From NCBI GenBank assembly GCA_963668355.1, contig OY764265.1, positions 1,153,317-1,217,316 on the forward strand: 64,000 nt of DNA, written 5' to 3'. Made by a program: the position numbers and the translations under genes. Source of the DNA: Bdellovibrionota bacterium. Lineage in GTDB: Bacteria; Bdellovibrionota_G; JALEGL01; DATDPG01. Positions 2,058 to 62,534 of this stretch are shown in pieces (position 1 is the first letter of the stretch; each line of letters starts with the position of its first letter). The notes under the pieces were generated by a model. That model worked only from the letters and a program-made list of their open reading frames with translations. It had not been told where the DNA came from and ran no database searches.

Positions 2058-2101
2058 GGATTCGATCCTCCTTCATGTTGAAGGAATGAGAAGAGATTTC
2101 T

Positions 2102-3199: not shown

Positions 3200-3230
3200 T
3201 AAATCTCGCCTTCCTTTTTTGGAGTATTAG

Positions 3231-5681
<2,451 letters not shown>

Positions 5682-5691
5682 GAGGGGCGAA

Positions 5692-33415: not shown

Positions 33416-35925
33416 AATATCTTAAACTCACCTTGATCGTGGTTTCCGTTCTTATTGGATGTACCTATGTCCAGAGTGTTGATGCACGCCCTCGTGCAAA
33501 TCGTCAAACGGAAGCCGAAAAAGTCGGAGGTCTTTATCCCCTTACCCCCGAACTTCGTAGCCAGATCTCCACACTCATTGGCATGGCTAGATTTGGTTTG
33601 GGATATAAAAACACAGCCATTCATACTTCGGTCACGAACCCTGCCACGAATCCGTCCTACTACAATGATCTTCTTTATGGCGCCGTACACGCAGGAAGCG
33701 CTGTGCGCGTGCCCAACCGCATCAAAGAGCCCACGCTCTATCATATCAACCATCTCCGACAGGATCTGGGTGCCGAGTATGAGTTGCTGTATTGGAGCGA
33801 AGAAGCGCGCAAGCTTGGCTTCATCACCTCCGTGCGAATGTTAAAGGAATCAGAGGAATATCTTTGGGCGTCGAAGGCCGATCAGCAAGCCATGGAACTG
33901 AACTTAGCCAATCAATATGCCGTTTCTACGGTTCCCAGAGTCACTGAAGCTTTGGAAGAGGTGCGGAAGACAGCTCGCTACGCGGAAGCGGTTGAACGCG
34001 ACGATAAAGGCAGAATCGCTCAATTGGAACTTTGGACGCGTATCAATGCTCTGTATGCGATTTTGCAAGAAACCCGAGCCTATCAAAAAGCACCCAGCTG
34101 GAAGCAGAAAGCCATGGAAGAATTGATTCTGGCCAAAGAGCGCCAAGGTCTCATGAGTGCTTTCCTTCACTTTCGCATTCCCATGTTTCAAATTCCGGTG
34201 GACGGTCTTTCCTCGAATGAAATCGAGGAACTTCTCTTGGAAATGAATCAGGCTTTTCCAGAACACCACCCCTATGTGTTTGAGGTGAAGGATGGTGTGT
34301 TTCAAGGTTGGTTAGATTTAACCGAGCTTTTGCTCATGCGTTCGATGCTGTATCGCACGCGTCTTCCTTGGGAAGACAACACGCTCTCGGAAACATCCGA
34401 TCTCCCGGTGCTGGACCAAATCGCTTTGGGATCGACCCTCACGCACCAAGCGGTCCACATGACCGCGCCCATTCTACAGAATTGGGCGCAAGGTGTGGTC
34501 GCAACGACAACGGCAGCGGACCTTGCGGCATACGAAGGAGCGAGCAGCGCCATTCAATTTTTGGGAGATCGCTATCGTGAAATGCCTCTGCGAGCGCGCA
34601 CTGGAATGTTGGCGCGGACCCTGGTTCCCCGCTTGCCAATATTGAAAGGGCTCTATCTGGAGAATGCGGAGTGGGCCAAGATTGCGGCGGCCATATTTAC
34701 TCGCGCGCAGAAAGAAAGCACGAAAGCCGCGGCGGGGTTTGTTACCACCAAACTCAAGGCCCTGGGAGGCGTAGCCTTACGAAATTCAGCCCTTTTTGGT
34801 CTGGCACTGGTAATTGCGATAGATGCCTATCAGGTCTACCGCGCCGGCCAAGACGCTGGCTCGCCTCAAATGCAAGCCGAGGCGTTTGGAAACTTAGCCG
34901 TTCATTTGGCTGAAGGATTTGGGGCAAGCATGCTCATCAAGGCTTTAGCGGGCGCGGAAATGGTTCAAGTTACGGCAGGTATGGGTTTGGCCCAAGCAAC
35001 GGGTGCGATGCTCACGGCCGCCCTCACCAATCCCGTAACCTGGATCATTGTTCTGGGAATTGTCGCGACGGAAGTGATTCAGCGAAACTGGTATCCGGAC
35101 ATGATTACAATTGGCGTGGTTCGTCAATATGGACAGGCCTTTTTTGCCGATATGTGGAGAACCGTAGCGGACGACTTAATTCGCAGCAAAATCTGCGGAC
35201 GAAACCTTGTGATGGAGCAGTGGCAAAAGAAAGTATGTCTTAAGAAAGAGGAAGGCGGAGATTGGGAGCCTCGCACGTTTTCCTTTTTGGATTATCGCGT
35301 TCCACCTCAGGCCTTCATGGAAATGAACCCAGAGCAGCAGCGAGAAAACCGACGGCTGTATGTCTTGGACTTGGACCATTTTGAGGGATCCGTGGAAGAA
35401 ATCCTTACCTATCCTCCCATTGATCGAGCGGAAGCCTTAGACACTTTAGTAAAGGGCTATGCCGTGGCCTATTTAGAGCGGATGTTTTTCACGCTTCAAT
35501 TCCTAGGAGATGTCAACGTGAACCACTTTAAAGGACTCTTCGAAGAGATTGGTTTGTTGGCTTCGTCTGCTTCAATCGTTCCGGTCGATTTTGAGACGCA
35601 TGTGGCCAAATACGAGACGAAGGACCGCCTAGAAGTAAGAAGCGCGCTGCAGACCGAGCTGGAAGAGTTTGTGGGGCGCGCCGAGGGGCTCGAAAAAGAG
35701 TACGGTCGAAACCTTGTCTTCGGGTCGATTTCCGATGATATGATGCGGCGTTTGACTGGCTTGACGGATGAAGCAATTCTTGTTTTAGAGAACTGCTTTG
35801 ACCTCGAAGGCGAAGATGGGGAAATGCGTGCACGAAAACCTTGTATTCCCACGCCAATTGAGGAAAAAGCCTTGGAAGCTTTGTACGAACAAAGAGATCA
35901 AACAGAGCGGCACTGGTTGAAATAA
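33412..35925 (+). CDS. Large hypothetical lipoprotein (837 aa) with central Gly/Ala-rich hydrophobic helices
   Basis: Lipobox-like LIGC signal; ATGA overlap with upstream gene; central segments (GFGASMLIKALAGA, AGMGLAQATGAMLTAALT) resemble glycine-zipper membrane helices. Confidence 0.6.
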   Translation: MKYLKLTLIVVSVLIGCTYVQSVDARPRANRQTEAEKVGGLYPLTPELRSQISTLIGMARFGLGYKNTAIHTSVTNPATNPSYYNDLLYGAVHAGSAVRVPNRIKEPTLYHINHLRQDLGAEYELLYWSEEARKLGFITSVRMLKESEEYLWASKADQQAMELNLANQYAVSTVPRVTEALEEVRKTARYAEAVERDDKGRIAQLELWTRINALYAILQETRAYQKAPSWKQKAMEELILAKERQGLMSAFLHFRIPMFQIPVDGLSSNEIEELLLEMNQAFPEHHPYVFEVKDGVFQGWLDLTELLLMRSMLYRTRLPWEDNTLSETSDLPVLDQIALGSTLTHQAVHMTAPILQNWAQGVVATTTAADLAAYEGASSAIQFLGDRYREMPLRARTGMLARTLVPRLPILKGLYLENAEWAKIAAAIFTRAQKESTKAAAGFVTTKLKALGGVALRNSALFGLALVIAIDAYQVYRAGQDAGSPQMQAEAFGNLAVHLAEGFGASMLIKALAGAEMVQVTAGMGLAQATGAMLTAALTNPVTWIIVLGIVATEVIQRNWYPDMITIGVVRQYGQAFFADMWRTVADDLIRSKICGRNLVMEQWQKKVCLKKEEGGDWEPRTFSFLDYRVPPQAFMEMNPEQQRENRRLYVLDLDHFEGSVEEILTYPPIDRAEALDTLVKGYAVAYLERMFFTLQFLGDVNVNHFKGLFEEIGLLASSASIVPVDFETHVAKYETKDRLEVRSALQTELEEFVGRAEGLEKEYGRNLVFGSISDDMMRRLTGLTDEAILVLENCFDLEGEDGEMRARKPCIPTPIEEKALEALYEQRDQTERHWLK

Positions 35926-40287: not shown

Positions 40288-43200
40288 TTGGCGGGGAAGT
40301 TTCGTATGAAGACCAGAGATCTGTTGACCAAGGTGTTGTTTTCTTTCCTTTTTGGGCTTTTGGCTTTTTCAGGACAAAGCTTTGCCCAACCGGTATGGCC
40401 ACATTATTTTCAAAATCTTCACCCGAAGGTTTCCTCCACCGAAACCCAATATCTTCTGAGAGAGTTTGCCGATGAATGTGCGGCCCTGGACGTTCTCGGC
40501 TCTCAGCGCTACATCAGTTGGCAAAATCGCGGGACCTCAAGAAAAGATCGAGCGTTGGAGGAAGAATTCGATCAAGCTTTTGAAGAGCTCAAACAATTGA
40601 GTTTTGACATCGTTGATCGCCTGGAGCCCTCCGAACTTTTTCTTTTGCTTCAACAATTTCCGTCTCTGGCCTCGCGCTTGGGAATTCCACAATACGCACA
40701 CAATTTGGTTTCGATGGTCAGCATCGGGAGACCCAAGTTCGGAATTGGCGAACTGGAAAAATTCGTTCGCCATCGCACGCTCGTGCGCTTTCTGGAATTT
40801 TCGGAGGAGGAAGATCCCGAATTTGTCGCGTGGCTCTTAGAGATGTTGATCAAGGCGGAGGCCCATTGGGAGTTGTATGGGAATCTTCTAGCGCGAATGG
40901 ATGCTCTTGAAAGTCAGCGGCAGTACTTGGGCTATACGAACGATGAAAAAATAGACGAATTGAGAAGACACACCGAGTTTTATCAAAAGGCAAAGCCTCA
41001 ATTGGCTAGAGAAATTTTGGAATTGAAAAGGGCGACCGATCATCCCCGTTATGAAGCGTGGTTGAATTTGGCGCAAACCTATTTAGATGAATCTCCGGAC
41101 CTTCCGCAAAACATCGGTGAAGGTTTTGGTCTCCCTTTCTATTATGGTTTTCGTTCGGGCTTAGACAGTCTGGCCAGCGTCTTCCATCGTTTTGTTCTGA
41201 AAGATCCAAAGAAAGCCAGTGAAGCGACACATAATGCCGTCAAGTGGCACGAGCGCGCGTTTGCCAGCTCTCATTATTCTGGACTTCGTATGGACCGGCT
41301 TTTAAAGGGCGCAACCTTCCGTCCCGAAAACAGCCCCACTTTAGTTGGCGCAGGGGCCTCTGAAACTTTTTTGGGCGTTTTTGCTTGGCTGGGAACCGCA
41401 AGCGGTCACATCATGGAAGGGGATATCGGACAAGGGGCCAAGGTTCTTTTCATTGATTTTGCCGATGGGCTGTTTTCGTTGGCGGCGGCGCGCGACGACT
41501 TTGTCGAAGACTGGGCCGAGGTCGCTCAAATGCGATTGCAGGCGCAACTCATTGAGGATGAAACGATTCGTCAAGAAAAGATCATTCAAGCCGGCCAAAT
41601 GGCCTTGGCCAATCGACAAAACGGATATTTCAATCCCCATTATTCCGCGCCTTATGCCATCGGTGCGGTGATGGGAGCCAAAAAGGCATTTCGTTTGATG
41701 GTGGTTCCAATTCGATATCTTCGCTCTTTAAATCCTCGGATTCAGGAAGCCCAAGCCCGAGCAGGGCTGGAAACTTCTTCACGAGGAGGTCAGGGTTTTG
41801 AATGGAAACCCTTAGACGAACAGTCTCGAATACAAGTAGAAAGCCTCATTGAAAGTCTCCGAAAATCTGAAAATGCGGAATTGCAGGCCTTGATCCAAAA
41901 TGTGGAAAAAGGCGAACCTCCAGCCGGTCTATTTCCGGATGAAGGCGGAAGCGCAGCTCCTTCTCTTTCGCCACGCCGAGGAAGTGGCGGAGGTGGACCC
42001 GCAACGCTCGTCGAGTCTCGTCCCACGACGGGCTCACAAACTTCCACATCAACCTCTGTGGGTCAAAGCGCACGCACCCTTCAGCCATCACAGCCCTCTC
42101 CCTCCCAAGGGCCGGTCGCCCAGATTCAAACTCCGACGCAAATCGCTCAAGGTCTCGTCGTCGGAAATGTTGAACTCTTACATGCGAATGAAAATGAAGG
42201 TGAGGAAACCAGCGGGGAGGAAAGCTCATCGGAATTCATTGAACGTTTAACGCGCGAAGTTCGTGAATTACAGAAGCGATTGTTCGATTTCATTCCAGCT
42301 CTGGCTGAAACATTCGGCAGCTTTGAAAACTGGGTTCTGAAAGGCATGCCCCTACCTAGAGAAAGCGAGTTGCATGTTCGAGAAATTCGTCGCTCGATTC
42401 AATTGCCACCTCCTTCTCCCGAGACTATTCCCGATCAACTCATCTTCAACTCGCCAGAATATTTTCGTTGGCTTTTTACAGCCGTCGAAGCCTTAGACAA
42501 AGCCGAGCAAGAAGCTCTAACCGACGCGCTTCAAGGGCTAAACCTCATGACGGAGAGGGGCGGAGATGTCGCGTCCGACGCCACGCGCTTAAGTCAAATT
42601 TTTCAGGGTGTTTCAACCCTCAACTTAAGCGACTTTGATGGAACTCGTTCGCGCCTAGAAGATTTGGGAGAAGCGCGCAATACAGAAGTCGATCAACGCG
42701 CGGAAGAACTCCATGAACTGGAAGCCAACTTGGGCCTACATACGGTAAAAGTTTCGGGAAGACCGCTGGTTTGGCCGGAAATAGGATTGCTTGGTAGTTC
42801 TCAGGCCTCTCCACCACTCGCCATTGGAGAAGCCGGAGCGGCCATGGCTATTGATGGTGTGCCCTCGGAAGAATATCAAGGCTTCATTGATCAGCGTTCA
42901 GGTTTCAATCGTAGTGAACTCGATTTACAAATTCGCATTTTACTCTCGGCCATGGTGTTGCACGGCGAGTTTTTGGAAGCCTGGCGGCCTCAAGCTCAAA
43001 ACGGAGTGACACACAAAATTGCCTATGACGTTAAGCTCAAAGATGACAGCGACGGCGAAACGATTTTAAAACTTCAATTATGGCTTCAGGAAGTCGTAGG
43101 TGAGCGTGCCAAAGTTGTGCAAAGCCATTTCATTGAAGCTGAAAATGTAGGCCATAAAAATGTTTATCGCATTGACATCGTTCCGGGGGATAAAGCCGAC

Positions 43201-52583: not shown

Positions 52584-53087
52584 CTATTGAGAGCGGGTTG
52601 AAAAGGTAATCGTGCGGCAGGGAGCCGTGTTTTTCGAAGAGGCTCTCGTTAGAATGCGGCCCGAAAGACTTCCATCTTCATTGAGGCGAATCCATAAATC
52701 CTGGCAGACGGTTGAGCCCTTGTTGATGTGGCAAGGGATTTGTTGCCATTGGTTTGGTGTTAGTGTGGTTTCCAGAACGCTTGGTTCCAGGAGGGCCTCT
52801 CCAAGGAGTTTTCCGCCGTTGTCATGGGTGCGAACTGTCAGGTGAAGGCCATTATCCAGATCAGCAAGGATAAACTCCAGCAAACCCTCGTGGTGCACAA
52901 CCTGTCCCCCCGCTTTCCAATCGTCTCCTGGGGCGTATAGCTGCGTGGTTTCGCACCTTCCTGCGATGCCGTGTTGCATGCCCTCAAGGCTAAGGAGGGC
53001 TTCTTCGATGGTTAGATCTTCAGCAATAGCGAGCCTTGGGATTAAAAGTCCTATGCTTACCACCACACCCAGAAAGAATTTGTTCAT
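52584..53087 (-). CDS. Small exported hypothetical protein
   Basis: 167 aa with signal peptide FLGVVVSIGLLIPRLAIA; upstream of the SSF transporter on the same strand. Confidence 0.45.
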   Translation of the reverse strand: MNKFFLGVVVSIGLLIPRLAIAEDLTIEEALLSLEGMQHGIAGRCETTQLYAPGDDWKAGGQVVHHEGLLEFILADLDNGLHLTVRTHDNGGKLLGEALLEPSVLETTLTPNQWQQIPCHINKGSTVCQDLWIRLNEDGSLSGRILTRASSKNTAPCRTITFSTRSQ

Positions 53088-53375
53088 TGCCCTGTCCTTT
53101 AAAAATTAATGCTTCGCGTCAGGCTGGACTTTATACCTCATCTGGAGCCTCGAAAGAAAGGTTCAAGGGGAGATTTTTTGAAAAAAATTTTGGGCCACCG
53201 TGTAGAAATTTCGAAAAATTCGTAAACTTTAGTTGTCGTTTAAGATATTAAAATAAAAAGATAAATTTGGTTATTGCTTTAAAAACGTGTTTTTTGTTAC
53301 ACTAAAGCTGCACCCCCGAAGGTTGCTCCAGGAGGCGGGACCCAGATTTTCTGGGTTTGGAGTGTCATCGGGTTT

Positions 53376-53412
53376 GGGGTGGGCTCCCTCCCGGGCCCAC
53401 CCCCTTTTTTTT
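53376..53412 (+). terminator. Strong Rho-independent terminator on the plus strand with no plus-strand CDS upstream
   Basis: GC stem GGGGTGGGC(TC) / (GG)GCCCACCCC with short loop followed by T8 (53405-53412). Confidence 0.55.
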
Positions 53413-53613
53413 GCTCACAGCAAAAAACTTGGGAACGGCTAATTCGCCGCATATCTTCGTTAGAGCCCTTCGCTCGGTCCTCACGTACCGCGCAAGTACG
53501 CTGCGGTCGTTTTTCGTTTTCCGCCTTGATCTGCACCAAAATAGCTCGTTTCGTAGTTGTTCAAAGAAGACGCGTGAGCGTTTCTCCCGGGTTTTTCCTC
53601 CGAAAAAAGTTTT

Positions 53614-55050
53614 CTAAAAACGTAAGCTTGTTGTCAAAAAGATTTCGTGGAGTTGGATTTTTGCGTCTAGGTCGTTGGTTTCGGTTTCTTGGCGAAACGC
53701 ATACTGAAGGGCGCAAGAGAGGTTTCGGATCGGGTAGTAAAACGCATGGGCTCGGAGCGACCACTCTTTCTCCGTGGTTCGAGGTGCGGATGTAGGAGAA
53801 AGGTCTTGCCAGGCGTCACGCTCATTGCCTTCGAGGGTTCCTCCCATCTCCAGGCGAAACTCCCCATCTCGGAAATTTCTTCCCATCAAAAGATCTATGC
53901 CCGTGTTGAATCCACGATAATTGTCGATGAGGTCCGCTTGAATTCGTAGATCAAAATCGGAATCAAAGAGTTGGGGGTCACGATAGCCTACGGTGTATTT
54001 GATTTGGTTTTGGTCATCAAAGGTGCGTTTCATGTATTGGATGGCGCCAAAGACATAATTGCGATCAAAAATCCGAAACATGATCTGATCTCGAACACCA
54101 TAGTAGTACGCGTCAGTGACTTGAGCCCCTCCCAATAACGTGGAGTTAAAGAGGGGATCGCTGGAAGGAAGAATGGTCGAGAGATTTGAGGCATCAAACT
54201 GAAGAACGCGCCACAAGTTGAGGGAAAGCGTGTTGGTGAAGCTGGGTTGAGGTCGGGTAATCACCGATAATTGACCCAGTCGAAAGGCTGCGACTCCAGC
54301 AACATCTGCTTCCACCAAGCCAGAAAGACTCCATCGCGCATTGAAGTCGTAGGTACCTTGAGCAAATGCGGTCATGCGATCCAAACTCTTCTTGAACCAT
54401 TGGGCGTGAAGCGCGACATCTCCTCGAAAAGCGTTTCCTCGATACGAAGCATACACACCTGAAGTGAGGTAATCCAAAGAGAAGGGCTCACTCCGATACG
54501 CGCTTCCCAAGTAGCCAACTTGATTTCTCAAGTCATTGGCGAATCCGCCGAATAAACCAAGGCTCACACGATTGGAAGAGTGATAGACCAAACGAAGGCC
54601 ATCTACGCGAGCCCCTCCGGCTTCATACATGCGTTGGCGTCCCACCCATAAATCCAGTGATTTTGCGATGGAGGGAAGCTCCAAGCTGGCTTCGTAAAGT
54701 TGGTGCCGCCCCGCATTCGAAAATGAAAAGGTGGAATTTTTTTCTCCAATATTGAAATAGCTTCGTCCTTTGAAATGAAAAGTGCCGTCCTGTGAAGCAT
54801 TTTCACCAAAGAGTTTGGAAATTTTGGTTCGAAGGCCCAGCGAGAAAAGGCTGTACTGATCTTGAATATAATTGTTTCCGTAAAGATCGTCGGCCTGGAA
54901 GTTGGCTTGGCTCGAGACATTGTTTCGTAGATGCCAAAAACCCATATCCACATTGCCTTTGAATTCGGCCGCGTGAAGAGGAGCATGCGCGGCAAAAAGG
55001 AGCGCCCCTCCCAACAGGCCCAGAGCTCGAAGGGTTCCCCGTTTCTTCAT
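53614..55050 (-). CDS. Outer-membrane beta-barrel protein (porin-like), third gene of cytochrome operon
   Basis: Signal peptide LRALGLLGGALLFAAHAPLHA; alternating amphipathic beta-strand pattern; C-terminal ...TSLRF aromatic terminus; ATGA start/stop overlap with the cytochrome gene. Confidence 0.7.
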   Translation of the reverse strand: MKKRGTLRALGLLGGALLFAAHAPLHAAEFKGNVDMGFWHLRNNVSSQANFQADDLYGNNYIQDQYSLFSLGLRTKISKLFGENASQDGTFHFKGRSYFNIGEKNSTFSFSNAGRHQLYEASLELPSIAKSLDLWVGRQRMYEAGGARVDGLRLVYHSSNRVSLGLFGGFANDLRNQVGYLGSAYRSEPFSLDYLTSGVYASYRGNAFRGDVALHAQWFKKSLDRMTAFAQGTYDFNARWSLSGLVEADVAGVAAFRLGQLSVITRPQPSFTNTLSLNLWRVLQFDASNLSTILPSSDPLFNSTLLGGAQVTDAYYYGVRDQIMFRIFDRNYVFGAIQYMKRTFDDQNQIKYTVGYRDPQLFDSDFDLRIQADLIDNYRGFNTGIDLLMGRNFRDGEFRLEMGGTLEGNERDAWQDLSPTSAPRTTEKEWSLRAHAFYYPIRNLSCALQYAFRQETETNDLDAKIQLHEIFLTTSLRF

Positions 55051-57128
55051 GGTTTTGCCGGCCTCCATCCAAATGTGAAGTGGCAGGTTTCACAGGTGAT
55101 GGGTGCGCCCACATGACCGGTGATCGTGGCATCGAAGTCCTTGGCATGACAGAAGTGACAATCTTGCGGTAAGCCGCCAAAAATTCGATTGGCATGACAT
55201 TGGTTGCAATCCAAGAAGCGGTGGGCTCCCGAGAGGTCAAAGCCCGTTTGGGAGTGTCGGAAGGTGGTGGGGAGCCAAGCTTGTTGGTTGTGACATTGCC
55301 AACACGTTCGCCCAAAGGAATTCATATGGGGGTCGAGATGGCAAGCCGCGCAGTCCGTTCGGGAGGTGCGAACGTTTTCCGTGGCATTGTGGCAGGCCGT
55401 GCAATCCATTTGATCATGAACTCCACCCAACGAAAATTCGCCAAAATCATGAAAGCCTCCTTTTCGAACGGAGAAGCCTTCAAAGACATGACAACGCTCA
55501 CAATTGGTTCCAAACGTTCCATCATGAACATCCCGGTGACAAGACGAGCATTCGCTGGATTCAAACTTGTATTGATAATCTTTATGGCATTGATTGCAGG
55601 CCAGCTTTCGATGTTGTCCTCTTAAGTTAAACCTGGAACCTCGCTCATGATCGAATTCGATGTCGTTGAAGGCAATGGGCGCATGGCATCGCATGCATTC
55701 AATTCCAAGTTCTCCCTTGTGGAAGTCCGTGTGGCAATTTTGGCAAAGGGTGTCGATGCCGGCATAGCGGCCATTCGAGTGACAATCCGCACAGGGTACG
55801 TTTTGGTGTTTTCCAACCAACGGAAAACGGGATTGCCGATTGTGGTCGAAGGTCAGGTTTTTAAATGCAGAGAACGTATGACAGGATGCACAGGTTTTCT
55901 TTCCAAATTGTCCTTTATGTACATCGATGTGACAGTAGGAGCAGTCCGGATTTTGATTAAGCCAGCGATACTTGGCGTCTGCATGACATTGGCCACAGGG
56001 AACGACCTTATGTTTTCCTTCGAGTTTGAACCGCGCATCTTTTTCATGGTTGAACTTCAAGAACTTCCAGCCGTCTTCAATATGGCAGCTCTTGCAAGTT
56101 TTCTTTTCGGTCCAGAGAATTTCGAATTGATTTCCATGGGGGTTATTGTGACAGCCGCTGCATTGAGAAAAGTTTTTCATTTTTCCAATGACAGGGCCGT
56201 GACACCTCACGCACGTCACATAGTTATGTTCGCCTCGTAAAGGAAAGGCAGTTTTACTGTGGTCAAACTCACCCTTTCCTTTAGGGGTGATCGCTCGCCA
56301 AGAACGCGTGTGATGACATTTCTTGCAATCTTTTCCCAGCTTTCCCTTGTGGGGATCTACGTGGCAATTGCTACATCGTTTGAACGGGGTGGGTTTCCAG
56401 AGTTTGTTTTTGTGACACGCGTAACAATCGACCGGTTTATGTTTCCCGGTGAGAGGATATTTCGTGTCTCTATCGTGATCAAACGGGAGCCGGGCTAAAA
56501 TGGGGGACCATTTCGAAGTGTTGTGACATTTTTCACATAAGGTGAACGATTGGGTTTTGGACTTATGAATGTCCTCGTGACAAGACGCACATTTAGAGGG
56601 GGTGTTGATGTAAGTTCGTGTGTTGGTTTTACGGCCGGTTTTTACATGGCGGCGTTTGGCTTTGTGGCAGTCCTCACATTGCGCAGTGACGTGTGCACCA
56701 TCCAACGGCCAGTCGGTTTCGTCGTGATGAAAGGAAAGGCGCGTTAAACCCATCAAATCATAATCCAAGCCTTTGTGATCACTGTGGCATTCGATGCAGG
56801 TTCCTTCAACACGCGCATGGTATCCCTTGTCCTTGGAAACCAGAGAGGCGATTTCGGTATGGCAGTCGAGGCATTTTTGGTCAGGGACACCTTTTGCGGT
56901 GGCGTGGCAATCGGTACACTTGCTCAAGCCTTCCAGCTCTTGGTGGGCTTTGGCCAAAGGACCGGGATTTAGAAGCCCTCCGAAGTCAAGCTGGGCCCTT
57001 GCCGGTGACGCTGTCGCCAGAAATCCAAAAATGGCCGCAATGATTATGTGTCCCCGAAATCTCAAAAACATCCCCAAGTGAACTAAAACGATACCCGGAA
57101 TCGTCCAATTGGCGAAATTTTCAATCAC
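55047..57128 (-). CDS. Multiheme cytochrome c with 27 CxxCH motifs (about nine triheme c7-like repeats)
   Basis: 27 CxxCH motifs counted in the translation; signal peptide MFLRFRGHIIIAAIFGFLATASPARA (alternative start near 57071); recurrent FDH / GxH distal-His spacing. Confidence 0.9.
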   Translation of the reverse strand: MIENFANWTIPGIVLVHLGMFLRFRGHIIIAAIFGFLATASPARAQLDFGGLLNPGPLAKAHQELEGLSKCTDCHATAKGVPDQKCLDCHTEIASLVSKDKGYHARVEGTCIECHSDHKGLDYDLMGLTRLSFHHDETDWPLDGAHVTAQCEDCHKAKRRHVKTGRKTNTRTYINTPSKCASCHEDIHKSKTQSFTLCEKCHNTSKWSPILARLPFDHDRDTKYPLTGKHKPVDCYACHKNKLWKPTPFKRCSNCHVDPHKGKLGKDCKKCHHTRSWRAITPKGKGEFDHSKTAFPLRGEHNYVTCVRCHGPVIGKMKNFSQCSGCHNNPHGNQFEILWTEKKTCKSCHIEDGWKFLKFNHEKDARFKLEGKHKVVPCGQCHADAKYRWLNQNPDCSYCHIDVHKGQFGKKTCASCHTFSAFKNLTFDHNRQSRFPLVGKHQNVPCADCHSNGRYAGIDTLCQNCHTDFHKGELGIECMRCHAPIAFNDIEFDHERGSRFNLRGQHRKLACNQCHKDYQYKFESSECSSCHRDVHDGTFGTNCERCHVFEGFSVRKGGFHDFGEFSLGGVHDQMDCTACHNATENVRTSRTDCAACHLDPHMNSFGRTCWQCHNQQAWLPTTFRHSQTGFDLSGAHRFLDCNQCHANRIFGGLPQDCHFCHAKDFDATITGHVGAPITCETCHFTFGWRPAKP

Positions 57129-57156: not shown

Positions 57157-59127
57157 TCACCAGTTTGTGAAAAGAATGAGGTTCTTCAAAATGTGACCGA
57201 CGGCGATCATCATCATGATCCAAGCGAAGGGTCGATGAACCGTTCGCCAAAGGGCAAAAAGTCTGGACGTTACATTTAATAGAGCCGCGTTTCGTTGCAG
57301 GCGGATTTGGCTTTTCAGCAAATCCAGGAAGACGTGAACTTGGCGACCTTGAATTTTGATTTCTGAAGGAAGGCGAAGTCGGTAGGTCCACAGCATGACC
57401 CATGTACGGATGACCGAACGAATCAAAGACCAAAAGGTTGGATTCAGGCGCGCATCTTCGGTGGCCGTTTGAACAATCTTTTTCACAAAAGCCTTTTGCG
57501 CATCGGACTGACCCAAAAGGGCGCCTAATTTTTGCGTCAGAGCTTCATCTTCTTCTTCAATGTCCCGCATGCGCAGTTCAGTCCCTGCAACCCCACGCGG
57601 TATGATTTGATAGAGGAACCGTCCGAACAGTCCACTTAAAACCACCAGTCCCAAGGCCACGATCCCGAAAGAACTGGGCTGGAAGGGAAAGACAAAAGCC
57701 GTGTGAAAGAGGATCAAAACCGATCCAAAAAATCCGCAGAAATTGTGAAAATCCAACCAGGCGGGTTCTCGGCCCAAATACTTAAAGAGGCGTGGAAACT
57801 GTTTCCGCAAGGGGTAGGCTAAGCTTCCCATGATCAGAAGAAAGCCCAAGTTTCCATAGAAGTTACAAAGTTTGGAGCCTCGAGAAAATTCCAAAACCGC
57901 ATCTGAGGGGAGCCAGCCCCAGGCCTTCATGAGAAGAAGCAACGAGACGTCCGGGGATTTGGTGAGGGCAAAGGCTTCCCACGCCAGAAAGAGCGTTCCC
58001 ACAAAGGCTAAGAAAACATATGTTTTTTGCAGAGCCAAATCGAACCAATTCCTCTGCAAAAGACTGTCCATGGGTTTCTGAACGCCTTTCCCGGCTCCCA
58101 GAATTCGGGGATCTTCCAGAAGTTCCGAAGCTTCTACCTCCAGAATCGCACCCGTGGGGCAATTGGCGACGCAGGCAAGATCATCAAACCCATCACAGTG
58201 ATTGCATTTGTCCGCGATGAACTTGGGTTTGACCTTTTTATGGGGATCGAGGAAACGAGAAAACACAGGAAGTGTGGGCTCAACCTTGTGCATGAGGATG
58301 GCTCCATACTGACAAGCCGTGGCACAGGCCGAGCAGCCGATGCAATTGTCCAAAATTTCCACCTCACCCGTTTGTCGGTTGAACACCACAGAATCCACAG
58401 GGCAAGAGGGGATGCACGCGGGGTAGAAGCAAGTCAGGCAGCTTTTGGCAAAGTCCAGAACGCCAAACCGGGCATACCCCCGTTCAATTCGTTGAAACCC
58501 GTGCCGTTCTTCACAGGAGGTGTAGCAAATATTGCATTCGATGCATTTGTCCATTTGGGTGATTTTCACGCGAGAGCCTTGCGTGAGTTCGGTTTGGATC
58601 AAGAATTCAAGCGCGGACCGAGAATGTTTATCCTCACTGAACGTCCGGTTTCGATAGTCGACGCGATCGGCAAGTTTTTTTAAGTCATCCTTAAAGCCGG
58701 GTTGAATCTCGGCCAAGCGCTGAAGGTCTTGTCGGGAAACGACCAAGAGTTCTACCGCCGTGATGGCAGTGGCCTTCGTGGCCACTTGTCCCCGCCAGGA
58801 GAACGCCTTATCTACAAAAAAATCGCCTTTTCGGAGAAAATTGAGCGGTTTTTGACGTGCCTCCTCGTCAAATCCTGAGATTTGCAGTTGTCCTTGCAGA
58901 AGGAAAAAGAAGTATGAGAAAACAGCCTCTCGTTTGGGAAGTTCCAGAACGGTCTCTCGGGCGGGATAGCTGCATCGATACACGCGGCCATCCAGGTGGC
59001 GCAATGAAGCCCCTGGGACTTTGCGAAACAAGCGCAAGCGTTTCAAGTCCTCTGAGGTGGCCAGAGGAAAAGAAAGGGGCTTGGATGCCTGTTGCGAAGT
59101 TGGTTTTAAGGGCATACGTTTTCCCAT
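57157..59127 (-). CDS. Membrane-bound iron-sulfur protein: cNMP-binding-like N-terminus, two 2x[4Fe-4S] ferredoxin domains, C-terminal polytopic membrane domain
   Basis: Cys clusters CIECNICYTSC, CLTCFYPACIPSCP, CIGCSACATAC, CNHCDGFDDLACVANCP; N-terminal Crp-like beta-roll pattern; four to five hydrophobic helices at C-terminus. Confidence 0.8.
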   Translation of the reverse strand: MGKRMPLKPTSQQASKPLSFPLATSEDLKRLRLFRKVPGASLRHLDGRVYRCSYPARETVLELPKREAVFSYFFFLLQGQLQISGFDEEARQKPLNFLRKGDFFVDKAFSWRGQVATKATAITAVELLVVSRQDLQRLAEIQPGFKDDLKKLADRVDYRNRTFSEDKHSRSALEFLIQTELTQGSRVKITQMDKCIECNICYTSCEERHGFQRIERGYARFGVLDFAKSCLTCFYPACIPSCPVDSVVFNRQTGEVEILDNCIGCSACATACQYGAILMHKVEPTLPVFSRFLDPHKKVKPKFIADKCNHCDGFDDLACVANCPTGAILEVEASELLEDPRILGAGKGVQKPMDSLLQRNWFDLALQKTYVFLAFVGTLFLAWEAFALTKSPDVSLLLLMKAWGWLPSDAVLEFSRGSKLCNFYGNLGFLLIMGSLAYPLRKQFPRLFKYLGREPAWLDFHNFCGFFGSVLILFHTAFVFPFQPSSFGIVALGLVVLSGLFGRFLYQIIPRGVAGTELRMRDIEEEDEALTQKLGALLGQSDAQKAFVKKIVQTATEDARLNPTFWSLIRSVIRTWVMLWTYRLRLPSEIKIQGRQVHVFLDLLKSQIRLQRNAALLNVTSRLFALWRTVHRPFAWIMMMIAVGHILKNLILFTNW

Positions 59128-59243: not shown

Positions 59244-59966
59244 ATGATCGAAGTAAATCAGCTAACCAAAAAGTATGGAGAAATTCATGCCGTAGATGGC
59301 GTCTCGTTCAAAGTTGATGACGGAGAAATTCTTGGTTTTTTAGGACCAAACGGAGCTGGCAAGACCACCACCATGCGCATTTTAACGGGGTTCATTCCTC
59401 CCTCATCGGGAACGGCGGTTGTGGCGGGCCACGACATCCAAGTCGAACCCCTGGAGGTCAAAAAACGAATCGGCTATTTGCCGGAAACCCCTCCGCTTTA
59501 CACCGACTTAAGCGTGTCGGCCTATTTGAATTTTGTGGCCAAAATCAAACAGATTCCTTCCGAAAAGAGAGCTGAGCGCTTGGACTGGGTATTGGAACAA
59601 TGTGGGTTGAAAGATGTGCACAAGCGCGTCATCCAAAATCTTTCGAAAGGATATCGCCAGCGCGTGGGTTTGGCACAAGCCATCATTCATGAACCAGAGG
59701 TCTTGATTTTGGATGAGCCGACGGTCGGGTTGGATCCGGCTCAAATCCGGGAAATTCGAGAGCTGATCAGAAAGTTGTCGGAAAACCACACCATTATTTT
59801 ATCCACACATATTCTTCCAGAAGTGACGCTGATCTGTAATCGGGCTGTGATCATCAATCGCGGAAAAATTGTGTTGGAAGGCACCGTATCTGAGCTTACG
59901 GCGGAGAAAAATTTGGAAGAGGTTTTCGTCGACCTGGTTTCAAAAGGCGAAACAACCGAAGCTTAG
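59244..59966 (+). CDS. ABC transporter ATP-binding protein (ABC-2 / GldA-like)
   Basis: Walker A GPNGAGKTT, signature LSKGYRQRVGLA, Walker B ILDEPT. Confidence 0.9.
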   Translation: MIEVNQLTKKYGEIHAVDGVSFKVDDGEILGFLGPNGAGKTTTMRILTGFIPPSSGTAVVAGHDIQVEPLEVKKRIGYLPETPPLYTDLSVSAYLNFVAKIKQIPSEKRAERLDWVLEQCGLKDVHKRVIQNLSKGYRQRVGLAQAIIHEPEVLILDEPTVGLDPAQIREIRELIRKLSENHTIILSTHILPEVTLICNRAVIINRGKIVLEGTVSELTAEKNLEEVFVDLVSKGETTEA

Positions 59967-59983
59967 GCTAGAAGGAGAAGGAC

Positions 59984-60769
59984 ATGTCAACGACTTGGGC
60001 CATCATTCAGAAAGAAATTAAACATTATTTCGTATCTCCCATCGCCTACGTGGTGATGATGATTTATCTCACGCTGTCGGGGTATTTCTTTTTCGTGGGG
60101 CTGAATCGATTCAGTCATGTGTATAGCGAGGCCAAAAATTCCATGCGGTTTTATCAAAATCCGCAGATCCTGGAACACATCAACCTGAATGAGATTGTGA
60201 TTGCACCGGCCTTGTTCAATATGATTTTTGTGTTTCTCTTCCTGTTGCCCTTGATCATGATGCGATCCTTTGCCGAAGAGAAAAGGGCTCGTACAGATGA
60301 ACTTTTAATGACATCCCCCATCACGACGGGACAACTCGTCATGGGTAAATTCATCGGCTCCATACTTTTCATTCTGGTTTTGATTCTGCCCACGCTGATC
60401 TATCAAGGATTTCTTTTTTATTATGCTTCCCCCGAGTGGGGGCCCGTGTTTACGGGGTATGTCGGCGTAATTTTATTTGCGATGGCAGGTGTTTCCATCG
60501 GTCTGTTTGCCTCCTCGTTGACTGAAAATCAAATCATCGCAGCGGTCATTACCTTCGTGATTTTGCTATTCATGTTCATCATCAATTTTATTGGGCAAGC
60601 CGAGGGGACCTTTTTGTACGACATTGTTCGGTACCTTGCAGTAGCCGAGCATATTCAAAACTTACTCATGGGTGTGATCGACACAAAAGATCTAGCGTAT
60701 TTTTTAAGCATCATTCTTTTGTTTTTGTTCATGACCAAACGATCTGTGGAATCGTTCCGTTGGAGATAG
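59984..60769 (+). CDS. ABC-2 family permease (GldF-like)
   Basis: 261-aa six-TM protein directly downstream of the ATPase. Confidence 0.8.
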   Translation: MSTTWAIIQKEIKHYFVSPIAYVVMMIYLTLSGYFFFVGLNRFSHVYSEAKNSMRFYQNPQILEHINLNEIVIAPALFNMIFVFLFLLPLIMMRSFAEEKRARTDELLMTSPITTGQLVMGKFIGSILFILVLILPTLIYQGFLFYYASPEWGPVFTGYVGVILFAMAGVSIGLFASSLTENQIIAAVITFVILLFMFIINFIGQAEGTFLYDIVRYLAVAEHIQNLLMGVIDTKDLAYFLSIILLFLFMTKRSVESFRWR

Positions 60770-60776
60770 GAGGACG

Positions 60777-62534
60777 ATGATGAACGTATTATTTCAATGT
60801 TTGGGAATTACTGGATTAATCATGCTGCTCTATGGCCTTTTGGCCTTTGCAGTGACTCCCGTTGCTTCCGTTTTCTTTTGGGTTTTGGTGATTTTGGGAA
60901 CGCTCTTGATCTTAACCTTTGTCATCAAGTCTTTGTCTCGGCGTTGGCAGTTGGTCACGGCGTCCTTTGTGGGCCTAAATGGCATTTGGATTTTTCTTTC
61001 TTTTGGAGAGAAGTTGGGCTTCTGGGATGAGTTAGACTGGCGCTATCTTTTAATTGGGGCGTTTGTTCTCAATGTCATTTTTGTGGTTGCGGCCAGAAAG
61101 TTTTTGAAAGACCTGTTTGAAAAACGAGCCGTTCAACATGGTGCCAATGCCATTGTGTATTCCTTGATCTTTTTGGCCACTCTGGTGGTTTTAAATATTT
61201 TTGCCGTCGACGTGAATCGCAAATGGGATTTTACCGAAAGCTCCATCAATACGCTGAGCCAGCAATCTGTTGACCTTCTCAATCGTCTGGATGCTCCTTT
61301 GAACATCTATGTATTCGTAGATGATCAATATCCGGACAAACCACGCCTGAAAAAATTGCTCGGAATGTATGAATTTGAATCCGATAAAGTGAACGTTGAG
61401 TTTTTGGACCCGGATCGAGAACGTCATCTGGCCGAAAAATACAAGGTGCAGAATGGCCAACTCGTTGTGGAGTATAAAAATCAGTCGCACATCACCCAAG
61501 GAACCAACGAAGAAGGGATTACGCAGGCCATTTTGAAAGTGGCTGACAAAAGAGATGCGACGATCTGCTTCGTTCAGGGTCACGGAGAGTTGGGCATCGA
61601 TAGCGAAAATGATGATCCACGAAGCCTCTCCGCCGTCAACGGAGGTCTTGAAAACGAGGGATATACCACCAAAGTCGTCAACAATATTACGGGGGGTATT
61701 CCTCAAGATTGTTCGATTCTGACGATTGCCGGCCCCACCCAAATGTATACGCCGGATGAAGTGAAGTCGGTGGAGAACTTTTTGGCCGGGGGAGGAAAGG
61801 CCATGATCCTTTTGGATCCAAACATCCCCAATCCAAAATTGAATCCAAAAACCTTCCATATTTTGCCGACGGGATTGGAACAAACGCTCAAGAAATGGGG
61901 CGTGTTGGTTGGGCAAAACTTCATTCTGGAAAAACATTTGGAGCTTTTGCGTGGAATGACGGTGGGTCTGACCGTTATGGCACGGAACTATGGAAATCAC
62001 CCCATTGTCGATCCTTTAAAAGGACGACAAACGGTGTTCCAAAATGTTCAATCCATCCAAAAGAACAAAGATTTTTCCGGAACCGCGCTTGAAATCATTT
62101 CAAGTGCAAAGGGAGATTTGAGCTGGGCGGAACAAAACATTGACCGTCTTTTAAAAGAAGGCGCGGCAGAACCGAATGCTGGAGAGCTGAAAGGGCCTGT
62201 GCCGTTTGCTGTTGCGGTTGAAAAGGATATGAAAGGGAAAGATGAATTGGATGAAAGGCAAACGCGCATTCTCGTCATCGGCGATGCGGATTTCGCCTCC
62301 AATGGAATGGTGACCTCTTATGAGTTCAATTTTGACCTTTTCTTAAATGGTTACAATTGGCTTTCCGGACAGAAAGAAAGCATCACCATTCGTCCAAAGC
62401 GTCTTCGGGCTTCAGCCATCGAACTAACTCCGGAACAATCTCTTCGGATTTTTCACATTGCGATTGTTGGCATCCCCATGCTGGTTCTCATCTTTGGCAT
62501 GAACCTTTGGTGGTGGCGCAGACGAAAGGGGTAG
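60777..62534 (+). CDS. GldG-like ABC-transport auxiliary protein
   Basis: 585 aa with N- and C-terminal membrane anchors and large extracytoplasmic domain; gene order ATPase-permease-GldG. Confidence 0.7.
   Translation: MMNVLFQCLGITGLIMLLYGLLAFAVTPVASVFFWVLVILGTLLILTFVIKSLSRRWQLVTASFVGLNGIWIFLSFGEKLGFWDELDWRYLLIGAFVLNVIFVVAARKFLKDLFEKRAVQHGANAIVYSLIFLATLVVLNIFAVDVNRKWDFTESSINTLSQQSVDLLNRLDAPLNIYVFVDDQYPDKPRLKKLLGMYEFESDKVNVEFLDPDRERHLAEKYKVQNGQLVVEYKNQSHITQGTNEEGITQAILKVADKRDATICFVQGHGELGIDSENDDPRSLSAVNGGLENEGYTTKVVNNITGGIPQDCSILTIAGPTQMYTPDEVKSVENFLAGGGKAMILLDPNIPNPKLNPKTFHILPTGLEQTLKKWGVLVGQNFILEKHLELLRGMTVGLTVMARNYGNHPIVDPLKGRQTVFQNVQSIQKNKDFSGTALEIISSAKGDLSWAEQNIDRLLKEGAAEPNAGELKGPVPFAVAVEKDMKGKDELDERQTRILVIGDADFASNGMVTSYEFNFDLFLNGYNWLSGQKESITIRPKRLRASAIELTPEQSLRIFHIAIVGIPMLVLIFGMNLWWWRRRKG

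What the first reader, a model, noticed from the sequence alone, without database searches (positions are those of the whole stretch)
55047..57128. Exceptionally heme-dense cytochrome: 27 CxxCH in about 670 mature residues with a roughly 75-residue triheme periodicity
Counting the translation gives 27 CxxCH motifs, about one heme per 25 residues, in a repeating pattern of three motifs with recurrent FDH and GxH strings. This matches polymerised cytochrome c7-type triheme units (about nine of them), an architecture proposed for long-range electron transfer.
Basis: seen in the sequence. Interest (0 to 1): 0.6.

Follow-up and report, generated by a model that had tools for sequence, protein, structure and literature searches.

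The report
27-heme periplasmic cytochrome wire gene
This minus-strand gene encodes a real 27-heme cytochrome built from nine three-heme modules, a predicted "molecular wire" that sits in a conserved three-gene unit with an inner-membrane iron-sulfur/heme-b protein and a likely outer-membrane barrel; this kind of system has been predicted in other bacteria but never tested.

Summary
The ORF at 55047-57128 lies on the minus strand and has 27 CxxCH motifs. All 54 Cys are in motifs, and composition shuffles give 0.36 motifs. That is 24 residues per heme in the roughly 648-residue mature protein. The motifs form nine triheme units of 65-84 residues (mean 71, modal 65, not 75).

Each unit also has three conserved extra His, so all 27 hemes are probably bis-His. 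Pfam Cytochrome_C7 scores 106 bits. A profile of the unit finds the Geobacter dodecaheme GSU1996 as its best solved relative.

The architecture is not unique. More than 6000 homologs exist with 24, 27, 30 and up to 49 hemes. Geobacter GSU2210 (27 hemes) and the "PCC3" periplasmic cytochromes (21/24/27 hemes, 66-residue repeats) are already described.

The added finding is the context. A three-gene module is conserved across Bdellovibrionota, Bradymonadia and Myxococcota MAGs: a cNMP-like domain plus four [4Fe-4S] motifs plus a five-helix diheme-b membrane domain, then the cytochrome, then a likely outer-membrane barrel. The membrane domain carries the PCC3/PCC4 signature motifs.

The most likely function is a trans-envelope electron conduit, a reduced PCC3/PCC4-like variant. 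Structure prediction failed, so the fold and the insertion into the barrel remain inferred.

The parts
55047..57128 (-). Gene for the 27-heme c-type cytochrome. The ORF has 693 codons from GTG 57128; the probable start is ATG at 57071; the stop is at 55047-55049.
   Evidence: orthologs align from query residue about 18-21 onward
56994..57071 (-). Predicted Sec signal peptide MFLRFRGHIIIAAIFGFLATASPARA (residues 20-45). It has no lipobox Cys.
   Evidence: read from the sequence; inference
56745..56984 (-). Triheme unit 1 (residues 49-128). It is atypical, with Cys spacing 15/25, and its best Pfam match is Cytochrom_CIII. Its N-terminal motif is conserved.
56493..56744 (-). Triheme unit 2 (residues 129-212). 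It is the most c7-like unit, with a long loop between hemes 1 and 2.
   Evidence: Cytochrome_C7 29.5 bits for this unit alone
56280..56492 (-). Triheme unit 3 (residues 213-283)
56064..56279 (-). Triheme unit 4 (residues 284-355)
55860..56063 (-). Triheme unit 5 (residues 356-423). This unit is absent from the 24-heme relatives and duplicated in the 30-heme relatives.
55665..55859 (-). Triheme unit 6 (residues 424-488), 65 residues, canonical pattern FDH-x11-H-x4-CxxCH-x11-CxxCH-x3-H-x7-CxxCH
55470..55664 (-). Triheme unit 7 (residues 489-553), 65 residues
55275..55469 (-). Triheme unit 8 (residues 554-618), 65 residues
55050..55274 (-). Triheme unit 9 (residues 619-693) with the conserved C-terminal tail ...TFGWRPAK
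57157..59127 (-). Upstream gene, 656 aa. It is a fusion of a cNMP-binding-like domain, four ferredoxin-type [4Fe-4S] motifs and a five-helix membrane domain.
   Evidence: conserved next to the cytochrome in about 27 loci
58708..58926 (-). cNMP-binding-like domain of the upstream protein (residues 68-140). The canonical phosphate-binding Arg is not conserved.
   Evidence: Pfam PF00027 E 9e-10; found in 16 of 17 orthologs; the Arg statement comes from reading alignment A5
58138..58563 (-). Iron-sulfur domain (residues about 189-330). Its four Cys motifs start at C195, C230, C262 and C308. It has no Sec or Tat signal, so it is predicted to be cytoplasmic.
   Evidence: all 16 Cys invariant in 17 orthologs; Fer4_11 in 16 of 17
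57172..58038 (-). Membrane domain (residues about 364-652). It carries W457-x3-H461-x13-H475 on TM3, S498-G-L-F-G502 on TM4 and W627-x3-H631-x13-H645 on TM5, and is predicted to bind two b-type hemes.
   Evidence: four His invariant; DUF4405 in 14 of 17, Ferric_reduct in 7 of 17; the motif definition is from PMC5566968
53614..55050 (-). Downstream gene, 478 aa from ATG 55050 (an alternative ATG lies at 55068). It is a likely outer-membrane beta-barrel. Its ATG overlaps the cytochrome stop codon as ATGA.
   Evidence: C-terminal F/Y in all orthologs; beta-type alternation 2.4 times the shuffles, no TM helix; a few distant members hit Porin_4 / OMP_b-brl

Best explanation
The gene encodes a secreted, non-lipidated c-type cytochrome made of nine tandem c7-like (class III) modules. 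Each module covalently binds three hemes and supplies three further conserved His. The result would be 27 low-spin bis-His hemes arranged as one continuous chain, that is, an electron wire and not an enzyme.

The cytochrome is the middle gene of a three-gene module. The first product is an inner-membrane protein. Its cytoplasmic domain, with four [4Fe-4S] motifs, would pass electrons to two b-type hemes held between transmembrane helices 3 and 5, as in a ferric-reductase-type domain. The 27-heme chain would be about 27 nm long if extended like GSU1996, which measures 12 nm for 12 hemes. It would carry the electrons across the periplasm. The third product, translationally coupled to the cytochrome, is a probable outer-membrane barrel that would let the distal end of the wire reach the cell surface.

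The system would therefore be a reduced relative of the predicted PCC3/PCC4 porin-cytochrome conduits, without a separate extracellular cytochrome.

Shown here: the motif count, the modularity, the conserved ligands, the conserved gene order and the signature motifs. Inferred: the heme-wire geometry, the localisation, the contacts between the three proteins and the direction of electron flow (outward is favoured).
For: Cytochrome:
- It has 27 CxxCH motifs, no free Cys and 33 other His.
- Three extra His per unit are invariant in 28 homologs, and there is no conserved Met per unit.
- The nine-unit alignment averages 33% identity.
- Pfam Cytochrome_C7 scores 106 bits. The unit profile hits 3OV0 (GSU1996) at 4.5e-9, then nine-heme and 16-heme class III cytochromes. 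hhalign against PpcA gives 88.6%.
- The 24/27/30-heme variants differ by whole triheme blocks.
- The heme number is fixed within clades: 27 in the Bdellovibrionota-type loci and 30 in about 20 Myxococcota/Bradymonadia loci.

Module:
- The order FeS/membrane protein, then cytochrome, then barrel, on one strand, recurs in nearly all of 32 genome loci from two phyla.
- The cytochrome stop and the barrel start overlap as ATGA.
- The cytochrome is the only CxxCH-rich ORF within 8 kb in these loci.

Inner-membrane protein:
- All 16 Cys and four His are invariant.
- It carries two W-x3-H-x13-H motifs plus SGxxG, exactly as defined for the PCC3/PCC4 inner-membrane proteins.
- Orthologs give DUF4405, Ferric_reduct and Fer4_11 hits.

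Barrel:
- It has a signal peptide, a conserved aromatic C-terminus, an alternating hydrophobic pattern and no helical TM segment.
- Distant family members hit Porin_4 and OMP_b-brl.

Precedent:
- PCC3 periplasmic cytochromes have 21/24/27 hemes in 66-residue repeats, 26-27 residues per heme, next to a porin and this type of membrane protein.
Against: - The barrel is small (about 450 mature residues, perhaps 18-24 strands by a crude count) compared with the 26-strand MtrB that sheathes MtrA. Insertion of the wire into it is uncertain.
- There is no extracellular cytochrome in the module.
- The cytoplasmic electron donor is unknown.
- The cNMP-like domain lacks the canonical Arg.
- PCC3 and PCC4 are themselves untested predictions.
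- All carriers of the module are uncultured MAGs.
Confidence: 0.55

Rival explanations
1. The cytochrome is a periplasmic electron store (capacitor). It soaks up electrons from the inner-membrane module when acceptors are scarce, as proposed for GSU1996. It does not cross the outer membrane, and the barrel gene serves some other purpose such as solute uptake.
For: GSU1996, the best solved relative by profile, is discussed as a capacitor (PMC10138318). The module has no extracellular cytochrome. The barrel may be too narrow to sheath a cytochrome (crude estimate).
Against: The barrel gene is translationally coupled to the cytochrome. It stays adjacent across two phyla even though its sequence has drifted to 23-26% identity. 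The barrel family is rare, with 47 representative clusters in 1.84 billion proteins, which suggests a dedicated partner. The heme number is fixed within clades, which fits a length constraint better than a storage role.
Confidence: 0.2
2. The hardware is the same but runs in reverse. Electrons taken up from extracellular Fe(II), minerals or other cells pass inward through the barrel, the wire and the diheme-b domain, as hypothesised for PCC3 in iron oxidisers.
For: PCC3 and PCC4 were proposed as electron-uptake conduits in Fe(II) oxidisers (PMC5566968). Mtr/Mto-type conduits are described as reversible (PMC10734462).
Against: c7-type bis-His hemes are typically low-potential (established knowledge, not measured here). 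Ferredoxin-type clusters on the cytoplasmic side make inward flow from Fe(II) energetically uphill. The ferric-reductase-type diheme domain normally moves electrons outward. The carriers belong to Bdellovibrionota, Myxococcota and Bradymonadia, which are not known lithotrophs; that is a statement about lineages, since these MAGs are uncharacterised.
Confidence: 0.15
3. The protein is a catalytic multiheme reductase or oxidase (of the nitrite, sulfite or hydroxylamine type), or a subunit that polymerises into extracellular filaments like OmcS.
For: There are only weak, short profile matches to NrfH, cytochrome c552 and OmcS (E 7e-5 to 0.1, over 16-45 residues).
Against: Every heme has a conserved candidate sixth His ligand. 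There is no CxxCK motif or other variant motif, so no open catalytic site is apparent. The matches are driven by CxxCH motifs. Pfam and NCBIfam detect no catalytic family. The architecture is purely repetitive.
Confidence: 0.03
4. It is an annotation or sequencing artefact: a low-complexity repeat, or a frameshifted fusion that inflates the motif count.
For: None was found.
Against: The ORF is intact and the other strand is closed. Orthologs at 50-59% identity have the same 27 motifs and length. The identical 693-aa product is on record from a 2.9 Mb contig.
Confidence: 0.01

Closest known systems
PCC3 periplasmic multiheme cytochrome and PCC3 gene cluster (He et al. 2017, PMC5566968; Hoover et al. 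2023, PMC10734462)
   Same: The PCC3 periplasmic cytochrome has 21, 24 or 27 hemes arranged in 7-8 repeats with a 66-residue period, at 26-27 residues per heme. It is proposed to span the periplasm. It sits next to a porin gene (22 strands predicted in Leptothrix cholodnii). It is paired with an inner-membrane protein with five TM helices, SGxxG on TM4 and W-x3-H-x13-H on TM3 and TM5. All of these features are matched here.
   Different: There is no extracellular multiheme cytochrome gene here. The membrane protein is fused to a four-cluster ferredoxin domain and a cNMP-like domain (656 aa, against about 300 aa). The barrel is smaller than most PCC3 porins, which have up to 42 strands. The hosts are Bdellovibrionota and Myxococcota rather than Proteobacteria. 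Direct sequence homology was not tested.
PCC4 cluster, subgroup II (He et al. 2017)
   Same: A Fer4_11 iron-sulfur protein is encoded with the same kind of diheme-b membrane protein, and the two are annotated as one gene in Oceanospirillum beijerinckii. A porin is present and there is no extracellular cytochrome.
   Different: PCC4 has three small periplasmic cytochromes (4, 5 and 10 hemes) instead of one 27-heme polypeptide.
Geobacter sulfurreducens c7-type polymers GSU1996 / GSU0592 (12 hemes) and GSU2210 (27 hemes)
   Same: These are tandem triheme c7-like domains on one polypeptide, and GSU2210 even has the same total of 27 hemes. GSU1996 (3OV0) is the best solved relative of the unit profile, E 4.5e-9. 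It is an elongated 12 nm heme wire.
   Different: Each GSU1996 domain has one His-Met heme. Here there is no conserved Met, and there are three conserved His per unit. A single-sequence search finds no PDB relative, so the proteins are only remotely related. I know of no barrel or FeS-membrane partner reported for the Geobacter proteins (not checked here).
Cytochrome c7 (PpcA family, Pfam PF14522)
   Same: It has three bis-His hemes in about 70 residues. The heme order is collinear with the unit here (hhalign 88.6%). The heme density is the same, about 24 residues per heme.
   Different: c7 is a single-domain soluble carrier. The loop between hemes I and III is shortened here. The third distal His lies after, not before, the second heme motif. 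The first two distal His are 11 residues apart rather than 2.
MtrAB / MtoAB / PioAB porin-cytochrome conduits
   Same: The concept is the same: a periplasmic multiheme cytochrome encoded next to, and inserted into, an outer-membrane barrel. MtoAB and PioAB also lack an extracellular cytochrome.
   Different: MtrA is a decaheme of a different family, and MtrB is a 26-strand barrel of about 700 aa. Neither protein here matches the MtrB_PioB family or passes the threshold of any Mtr-family Pfam model. In the Mtr systems the link to the inner membrane is made by separate carriers.

Membership tests
Cytochrome c7 / class III cytochromes (Pfam PF14522, PF02085) | Significant match to the family profile | tested here: met
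   Cytochrome_C7 scores 106 bits (cutoff 24.8) in 5 stretches. Cytochrom_c3_2 scores 60.7 and Cytochrom_CIII 50.5. Taken singly, only units 2 and 5 pass the c7 cutoff.
Cytochrome c7 / class III cytochromes (Pfam PF14522, PF02085) | Three CxxCH hemes per unit of about 70 residues, collinear with c7 hemes I, III and IV | tested here: met
   hhalign of the unit profile against PpcA gives probability 88.6% over 51 columns, with all three motifs aligned. The PDB PpcA entry 4hc3 also matches, at E 0.06.
Cytochrome c7 / class III cytochromes (Pfam PF14522, PF02085) | All hemes bis-His | tested here: inconclusive
   Three non-motif His per unit are invariant in 28 homologs, making 27 candidates for 27 hemes. 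Actual ligation cannot be shown from sequence.
Cytochrome c7 / class III cytochromes (Pfam PF14522, PF02085) | Positions of the distal His as in c7 (H17, H20 and H47 of PpcA) | tested here: not met
   The unit pattern is H-x11-H-x4-CxxCH ... CxxCH-x3-H, whereas c7 has H-x2-H-x6-CxxCH ... H-x3-CxxCH.
Cytochrome c7 / class III cytochromes (Pfam PF14522, PF02085) | c7 three-dimensional fold | tested here: inconclusive
Geobacter c7-type polymers (GSU1996 type) | Tandem triheme domains on one chain | tested here: met
   There are nine units, and indels occur as whole units.
Geobacter c7-type polymers (GSU1996 type) | One His-Met heme per domain | tested here: not met
   The protein has only 6 Met, and none recurs once per unit (M602 alone is nearly invariant). 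There are three conserved His per unit. The feature is as described in PMC10138318.
Geobacter c7-type polymers (GSU1996 type) | Detectable sequence relationship | tested here: inconclusive
   The profile hits 3OV0 at E 4.5e-9, but in short pieces rich in CxxCH. phmmer with the whole protein finds nothing. No NCBIfam model passes its cutoff; the only hit, HmcA, scores 20 bits against a cutoff of 400.
PCC3 porin-cytochrome cluster | Periplasmic cytochrome with 21-27 hemes in repeats of about 66 residues, 22-39 residues per heme | tested here: met
   There are 27 hemes in units of 65-84 residues, at 24 residues per heme, compared with supplementary figure 1 of PMC5566968.
PCC3 porin-cytochrome cluster | Inner-membrane protein with five TM helices, SGxxG on TM4 and W-x3-H-x13-H on TM3 and TM5 | tested here: met
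   Both motifs and SGxxG are present in the window protein and in all 6 close orthologs. The four His are invariant in 17 orthologs.
PCC3 porin-cytochrome cluster | Adjacent outer-membrane porin gene | tested here: inconclusive
   An adjacent gene is conserved, with a signal peptide, a C-terminal F/Y, beta-type alternation and distant Porin_4 / OMP_b-brl links. The structure prediction failed and the protein has no direct Pfam hit.
PCC3 porin-cytochrome cluster | Extracellular multiheme cytochrome in the cluster | tested here: not met
   No second CxxCH-rich ORF occurs in the window or within 8 kb in 30 orthologous loci.
PCC3 porin-cytochrome cluster | Sequence homology to reference PCC3 proteins (Sideroxydans, Leptothrix) | not testable with these tools
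The supplement gives only repeat coordinates.
PCC4 cluster, subgroup II | Fer4_11 iron-sulfur protein joined to the membrane protein; no extracellular cytochrome | tested here: met
   Fer4_11 is found in 16 of 17 orthologs, fused in one ORF. There is no second cytochrome.
PCC4 cluster, subgroup II | Three periplasmic cytochromes with 4, 5 and 10 hemes | tested here: not met
   There is a single cytochrome with 27 hemes.
MtrAB / MtoAB | MtrA-type decaheme and MtrB_PioB-type barrel | tested here: not met
   The barrel and its orthologs do not hit the MtrB_PioB family. The cytochrome gives only a sub-threshold hit to an MtrC/F domain (16 bits against a cutoff of 30).

The most novel reading that the evidence does not exclude
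This would be a minimal three-protein trans-envelope electron conduit found in Bdellovibrionota, Bradymonadia and Myxococcota (lineages known for predatory members). One cytochrome polypeptide, with a heme number fixed per clade (24, 27 or 30), would act as a ruler-length wire. It would connect a quinone-independent inner-membrane exporter (a cytoplasmic four-cluster ferredoxin domain plus a ferric-reductase-type diheme b domain) directly to a new, rare outer-membrane barrel family, with no soluble shuttle and no extracellular cytochrome.
Probability: 0.3. Interest if true: 0.65.

Novelty: new variant of a known kind. Interest (0 to 1): 0.42.

Why it matters
Single-polypeptide heme wires long enough to bridge the periplasm have been predicted (PCC3, GSU2210) but never demonstrated. 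This module is the simplest version seen so far, with one membrane protein, one cytochrome and one barrel, so it would be a tractable target for structural and heterologous-expression work. The strict 24/27/30 heme counts, which change only by whole modules, offer a direct test of whether wire length is matched to envelope width. The module would also extend candidate extracellular electron transfer to Bdellovibrionota and Myxococcota, where I found no report of it in the searched literature. As a gene annotation, however, the cytochrome belongs to a very large family already labelled "cytochrome c3 family protein".

Tried and rejected
- Two word-indexed homology searches with the barrel, as a single sequence and as a profile, returned only 2 hits each. 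The exhaustive representative search found 47.
- phmmer of the whole cytochrome against the PDB found nothing. NCBIfam gave no model above its cutoff; the only hit was HmcA at 20 bits against a cutoff of 400.
- Exact look-ups for the source contig failed, so the organism is known only by its relatives.
- The barrel profile against the PDB gave only FapF at E 0.2.
- Rfam and tRNA scans of the window found nothing.
- The 167-aa secreted protein downstream was considered as a fourth component. It was rejected because it is absent from all orthologous loci.
- A catalytic role and an artefact were both considered and rejected (see the rival explanations).

Full report
**Observation.**

The interval 55047-57128 holds one intact ORF on the minus strand; the plus-strand reading is interrupted by many stops. 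The ORF has 693 codons from a GTG. Orthologs align only from about residue 18-21. M20 is followed by a typical signal peptide, MFLRFRGHIIIAAIFGFLATASPARA|QLDF. The real start is therefore probably the ATG at 57071, and the mature protein has about 648 residues.

There are exactly 27 CxxCH motifs. All 54 Cys of the protein lie inside them, and there are no variant motifs. Shuffling the protein's own composition gives 0.36 motifs on average and at most 5 in 20,000 trials. The density is 24 residues per heme.

The motifs form nine triads. The distances from first Cys to first Cys are 80, 84, 71, 72, 68, 65, 65, 65, with a mean of 71. Aligning the nine units gives the consensus F-D-H-x5-F-P-L-x-G-x-H-x4-CxxCH-x11-13-CxxCH-x3-H-x6-7-CxxCH, at 33% mean pairwise identity. 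The stated period of about 75 is somewhat high.

**What the protein is.**

- Pfam gives Cytochrome_C7 at 106 bits in five stretches, plus Cytochrom_c3_2 and Cytochrom_CIII.
- Scanned one at a time, most units have Cytochrome_C7 as best or near-best family. Only units 2 and 5 pass the cutoff alone, and units 1 and 4 lean towards class III c3.
- A whole-protein phmmer search finds no solved structure.
- A profile of 23 units does find solved relatives. The best is the Geobacter dodecaheme GSU1996 (3OV0, E 4.5e-9). Next come the nine-heme and 16-heme class III cytochromes, and PpcA scores E 0.06.

In an alignment of 28 homologs, every CxxCH motif and three further His per unit are invariant, apart from those in unit 5, which some relatives lack. 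No Met recurs once per unit. All 27 hemes therefore have a candidate sixth His ligand. This argues for a pure electron-transfer chain and against catalysis. It also separates the protein from GSU1996, whose domains each carry one His-Met heme. The distal His are placed differently from c7, so the unit is c7-like rather than a canonical c7.

**How unusual it is.**

The homology search returned more than 6260 proteins at E below 1e-5. They come from Bdellovibrionota, Myxococcota, Bacteroidota, Acidobacteria, Chloroflexota and Nitrospinae, among others. Where they are named at all, they are called "cytochrome c3 family protein".

Among the best 120, heme counts peak at 24, 27 and 30 and reach 49, at 24-28 residues per heme among the 30 listed. 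The density is thus normal for the family.

The literature already lists three comparable cases:
- G. sulfurreducens GSU2210, with 27 hemes, as a c7-type "nanowire of hemes" (PMC10138318).
- A predicted 27-heme nanowire cluster in Desulfuromonadia (PMC11492766).
- The PCC3 periplasmic cytochromes with 21, 24 or 27 hemes, proposed to span the periplasm (PMC10734462).

The supplement of He et al. 2017 shows that these PCC3 proteins consist of 7-8 repeats with a 66-residue period, at 26-27 residues per heme. That is the same architecture as here.

**Modularity.**

The 24-, 27- and 30-heme relatives differ only by whole three-heme blocks at one central position (unit 5). The other 24 heme sites align one to one. 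The heme number is fixed within clades: 27 in the Bdellovibrionota-type loci, 24 in a sister group, and 30 in about 20 Myxococcota/Bradymonadia loci. This is the strongest evidence that the triheme unit is the building block. It also hints at a constraint on total length.

**Context.**

The cytochrome is flanked on the same strand by two genes that stay with it. The order FeS/membrane protein, then cytochrome, then 440-490-aa protein recurs in close orthologs. It also recurs in nearly all of 32 genome loci, all of them MAGs. This includes Myxococcota and Bradymonadia, where the flanking proteins have drifted to 26-28% and 23-26% identity. No other CxxCH-rich ORF lies in the window or within 8 kb in these loci.

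*The upstream protein (656 aa):*
- It has a cNMP-binding-like domain and four ferredoxin-type Cys motifs. It has no export signal, so this part should be cytoplasmic.
- It has a C-terminal membrane domain.
- All 16 Cys and four membrane His are invariant in 17 orthologs.
- The membrane domain carries W-x3-H-x13-H on TM3 and TM5 and SGxxG on TM4. This is exactly the signature He et al. defined for the conserved inner-membrane proteins of PCC3 and PCC4, which they read as a ferric-reductase-like site for two b hemes.
- Orthologs give weak DUF4405 and Ferric_reduct hits, and Fer4_11 hits. Fer4_11 is the iron-sulfur family that PCC4 subgroup II encodes next to its membrane protein.

*The downstream protein (478 aa):*
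- Its ATG overlaps the cytochrome stop codon as ATGA.
- It has a signal peptide, and every ortholog ends in F or Y.
- It shows 2.4-fold enriched alternating hydrophobicity and has no helical TM segment.
- It belongs to a rare family, with 47 representative clusters among 1.84 billion proteins.
- A few distant members of that family hit Porin_4 or OMP_b-brl.
- It is most likely an outer-membrane barrel, but AF2 failed on it (pLDDT 27).

**Mechanism.**

The best-supported reading is a trans-envelope electron path with four stages:
1. Cytoplasmic iron-sulfur clusters.
2. Two b hemes across the inner membrane.
3. A 27-heme chain across the periplasm.
4. A barrel in the outer membrane.

The periplasmic length is extrapolated. 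GSU1996 measures 12 nm for 12 hemes, and MtrA about 10 nm for 10 hemes. That gives roughly 27 nm for 27 hemes.

The shown parts are the motifs, the conserved ligands, the modularity, the gene linkage and the translational coupling. The geometry, the contacts and the direction of flow are inferred. Outward flow is favoured by the ferredoxin-type cytoplasmic end and by the low-potential character usual for bis-His c7-type hemes.

The rivals are a periplasmic capacitor role, as discussed for GSU1996, and inward electron uptake, as proposed for PCC3 in iron oxidisers. Points against the conduit reading are the modest barrel size, the absence of an extracellular cytochrome, the unknown donor, and the fact that PCC3 itself has never been tested.

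**Comparison and novelty.**

The cytochrome works like, and is built like, the PCC3 periplasmic cytochromes and the Geobacter c7 polymers. It is not a GSU1996-type member, because it lacks the His-Met hemes. Homology to PCC3 proteins could not be tested directly.

The module combines three features in phyla where I found no report of it in the searched literature:
- a long cytochrome of the PCC3 type;
- an iron-sulfur-plus-membrane-protein unit of the PCC4-II type, here fused and with an added cNMP-like domain;
- no extracellular cytochrome.

I rate it a new variant of a known, still hypothetical, kind. The interest is moderate.

Noticed in passing
window 924-8160 (+): dnaN, recF, gyrB and gyrA lie in a row (Pfam). 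The window probably lies next to the chromosomal replication origin of the 2.9 Mb source contig.
   Followed up: no
window 59244-62534 (+): A GldA/GldF/GldG-like ABC transporter cluster is transcribed divergently from the cytochrome operon. This adjacency is conserved in all Bdellovibrionota-clade loci, which also carry a DUF4340 gene, but not in Myxococcota.
   Followed up: partly
window 53088-53613, hairpin at 53376-53403: A 526-nt gene-free stretch lies downstream of the barrel gene. It contains an 11-bp GC-rich hairpin (GGGGTGGGC...GCCCACCCC) with an A-run before it and no T-run after it on the operon strand. Rfam finds no match.
   Followed up: partly
window 52584-53087 (-): A 167-aa secreted protein has no Pfam or NCBIfam hit. 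It forms a singleton cluster in the 15-billion-protein collection and is absent from all orthologous loci.
   Followed up: partly
L016:4096-5856 and equivalents in about 15 Myxococcota/Bradymonadia loci: A conserved protein of about 586 aa with a lipoprotein-like N-terminus (...LGAVGC) and no Pfam hit sits next to the three-gene module in Myxococcota and Bradymonadia, but not in the window's clade. It could be a fourth component there.
   Followed up: partly
L038 and L039 (distant 35-48-heme relatives): More distant poly-triheme cytochromes sit beside a roughly 430-aa Fer4 + Pyr_redox_2 flavoprotein-like gene. In L039 they also sit beside further cytochromes, one of them fused to a Ni_hydr_CYTB cytochrome b domain. 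This suggests that other inner-membrane or cytoplasmic input modules serve the same kind of wire.
   Followed up: no
window 29519-35925 (+) and 40288-46539 (+): Two large ORFs of 1298 and 837 aa have no Pfam hit at all. A 2083-aa ORF has as its only recognisable part a GT4 glycosyltransferase domain near residues 1240-1590.
   Followed up: no
window 13915-15579 (-): A Ser/Thr protein kinase carries a C-terminal PilZ (c-di-GMP-binding) domain.
   Followed up: no
window 21383-26560 (-): A gene cluster for methylmalonyl-CoA mutase, biotin carboxylase and carboxyltransferase is present. In relative L002 the same cluster lies immediately downstream of the barrel gene, so the region is rearranged between relatives.
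   Followed up: no
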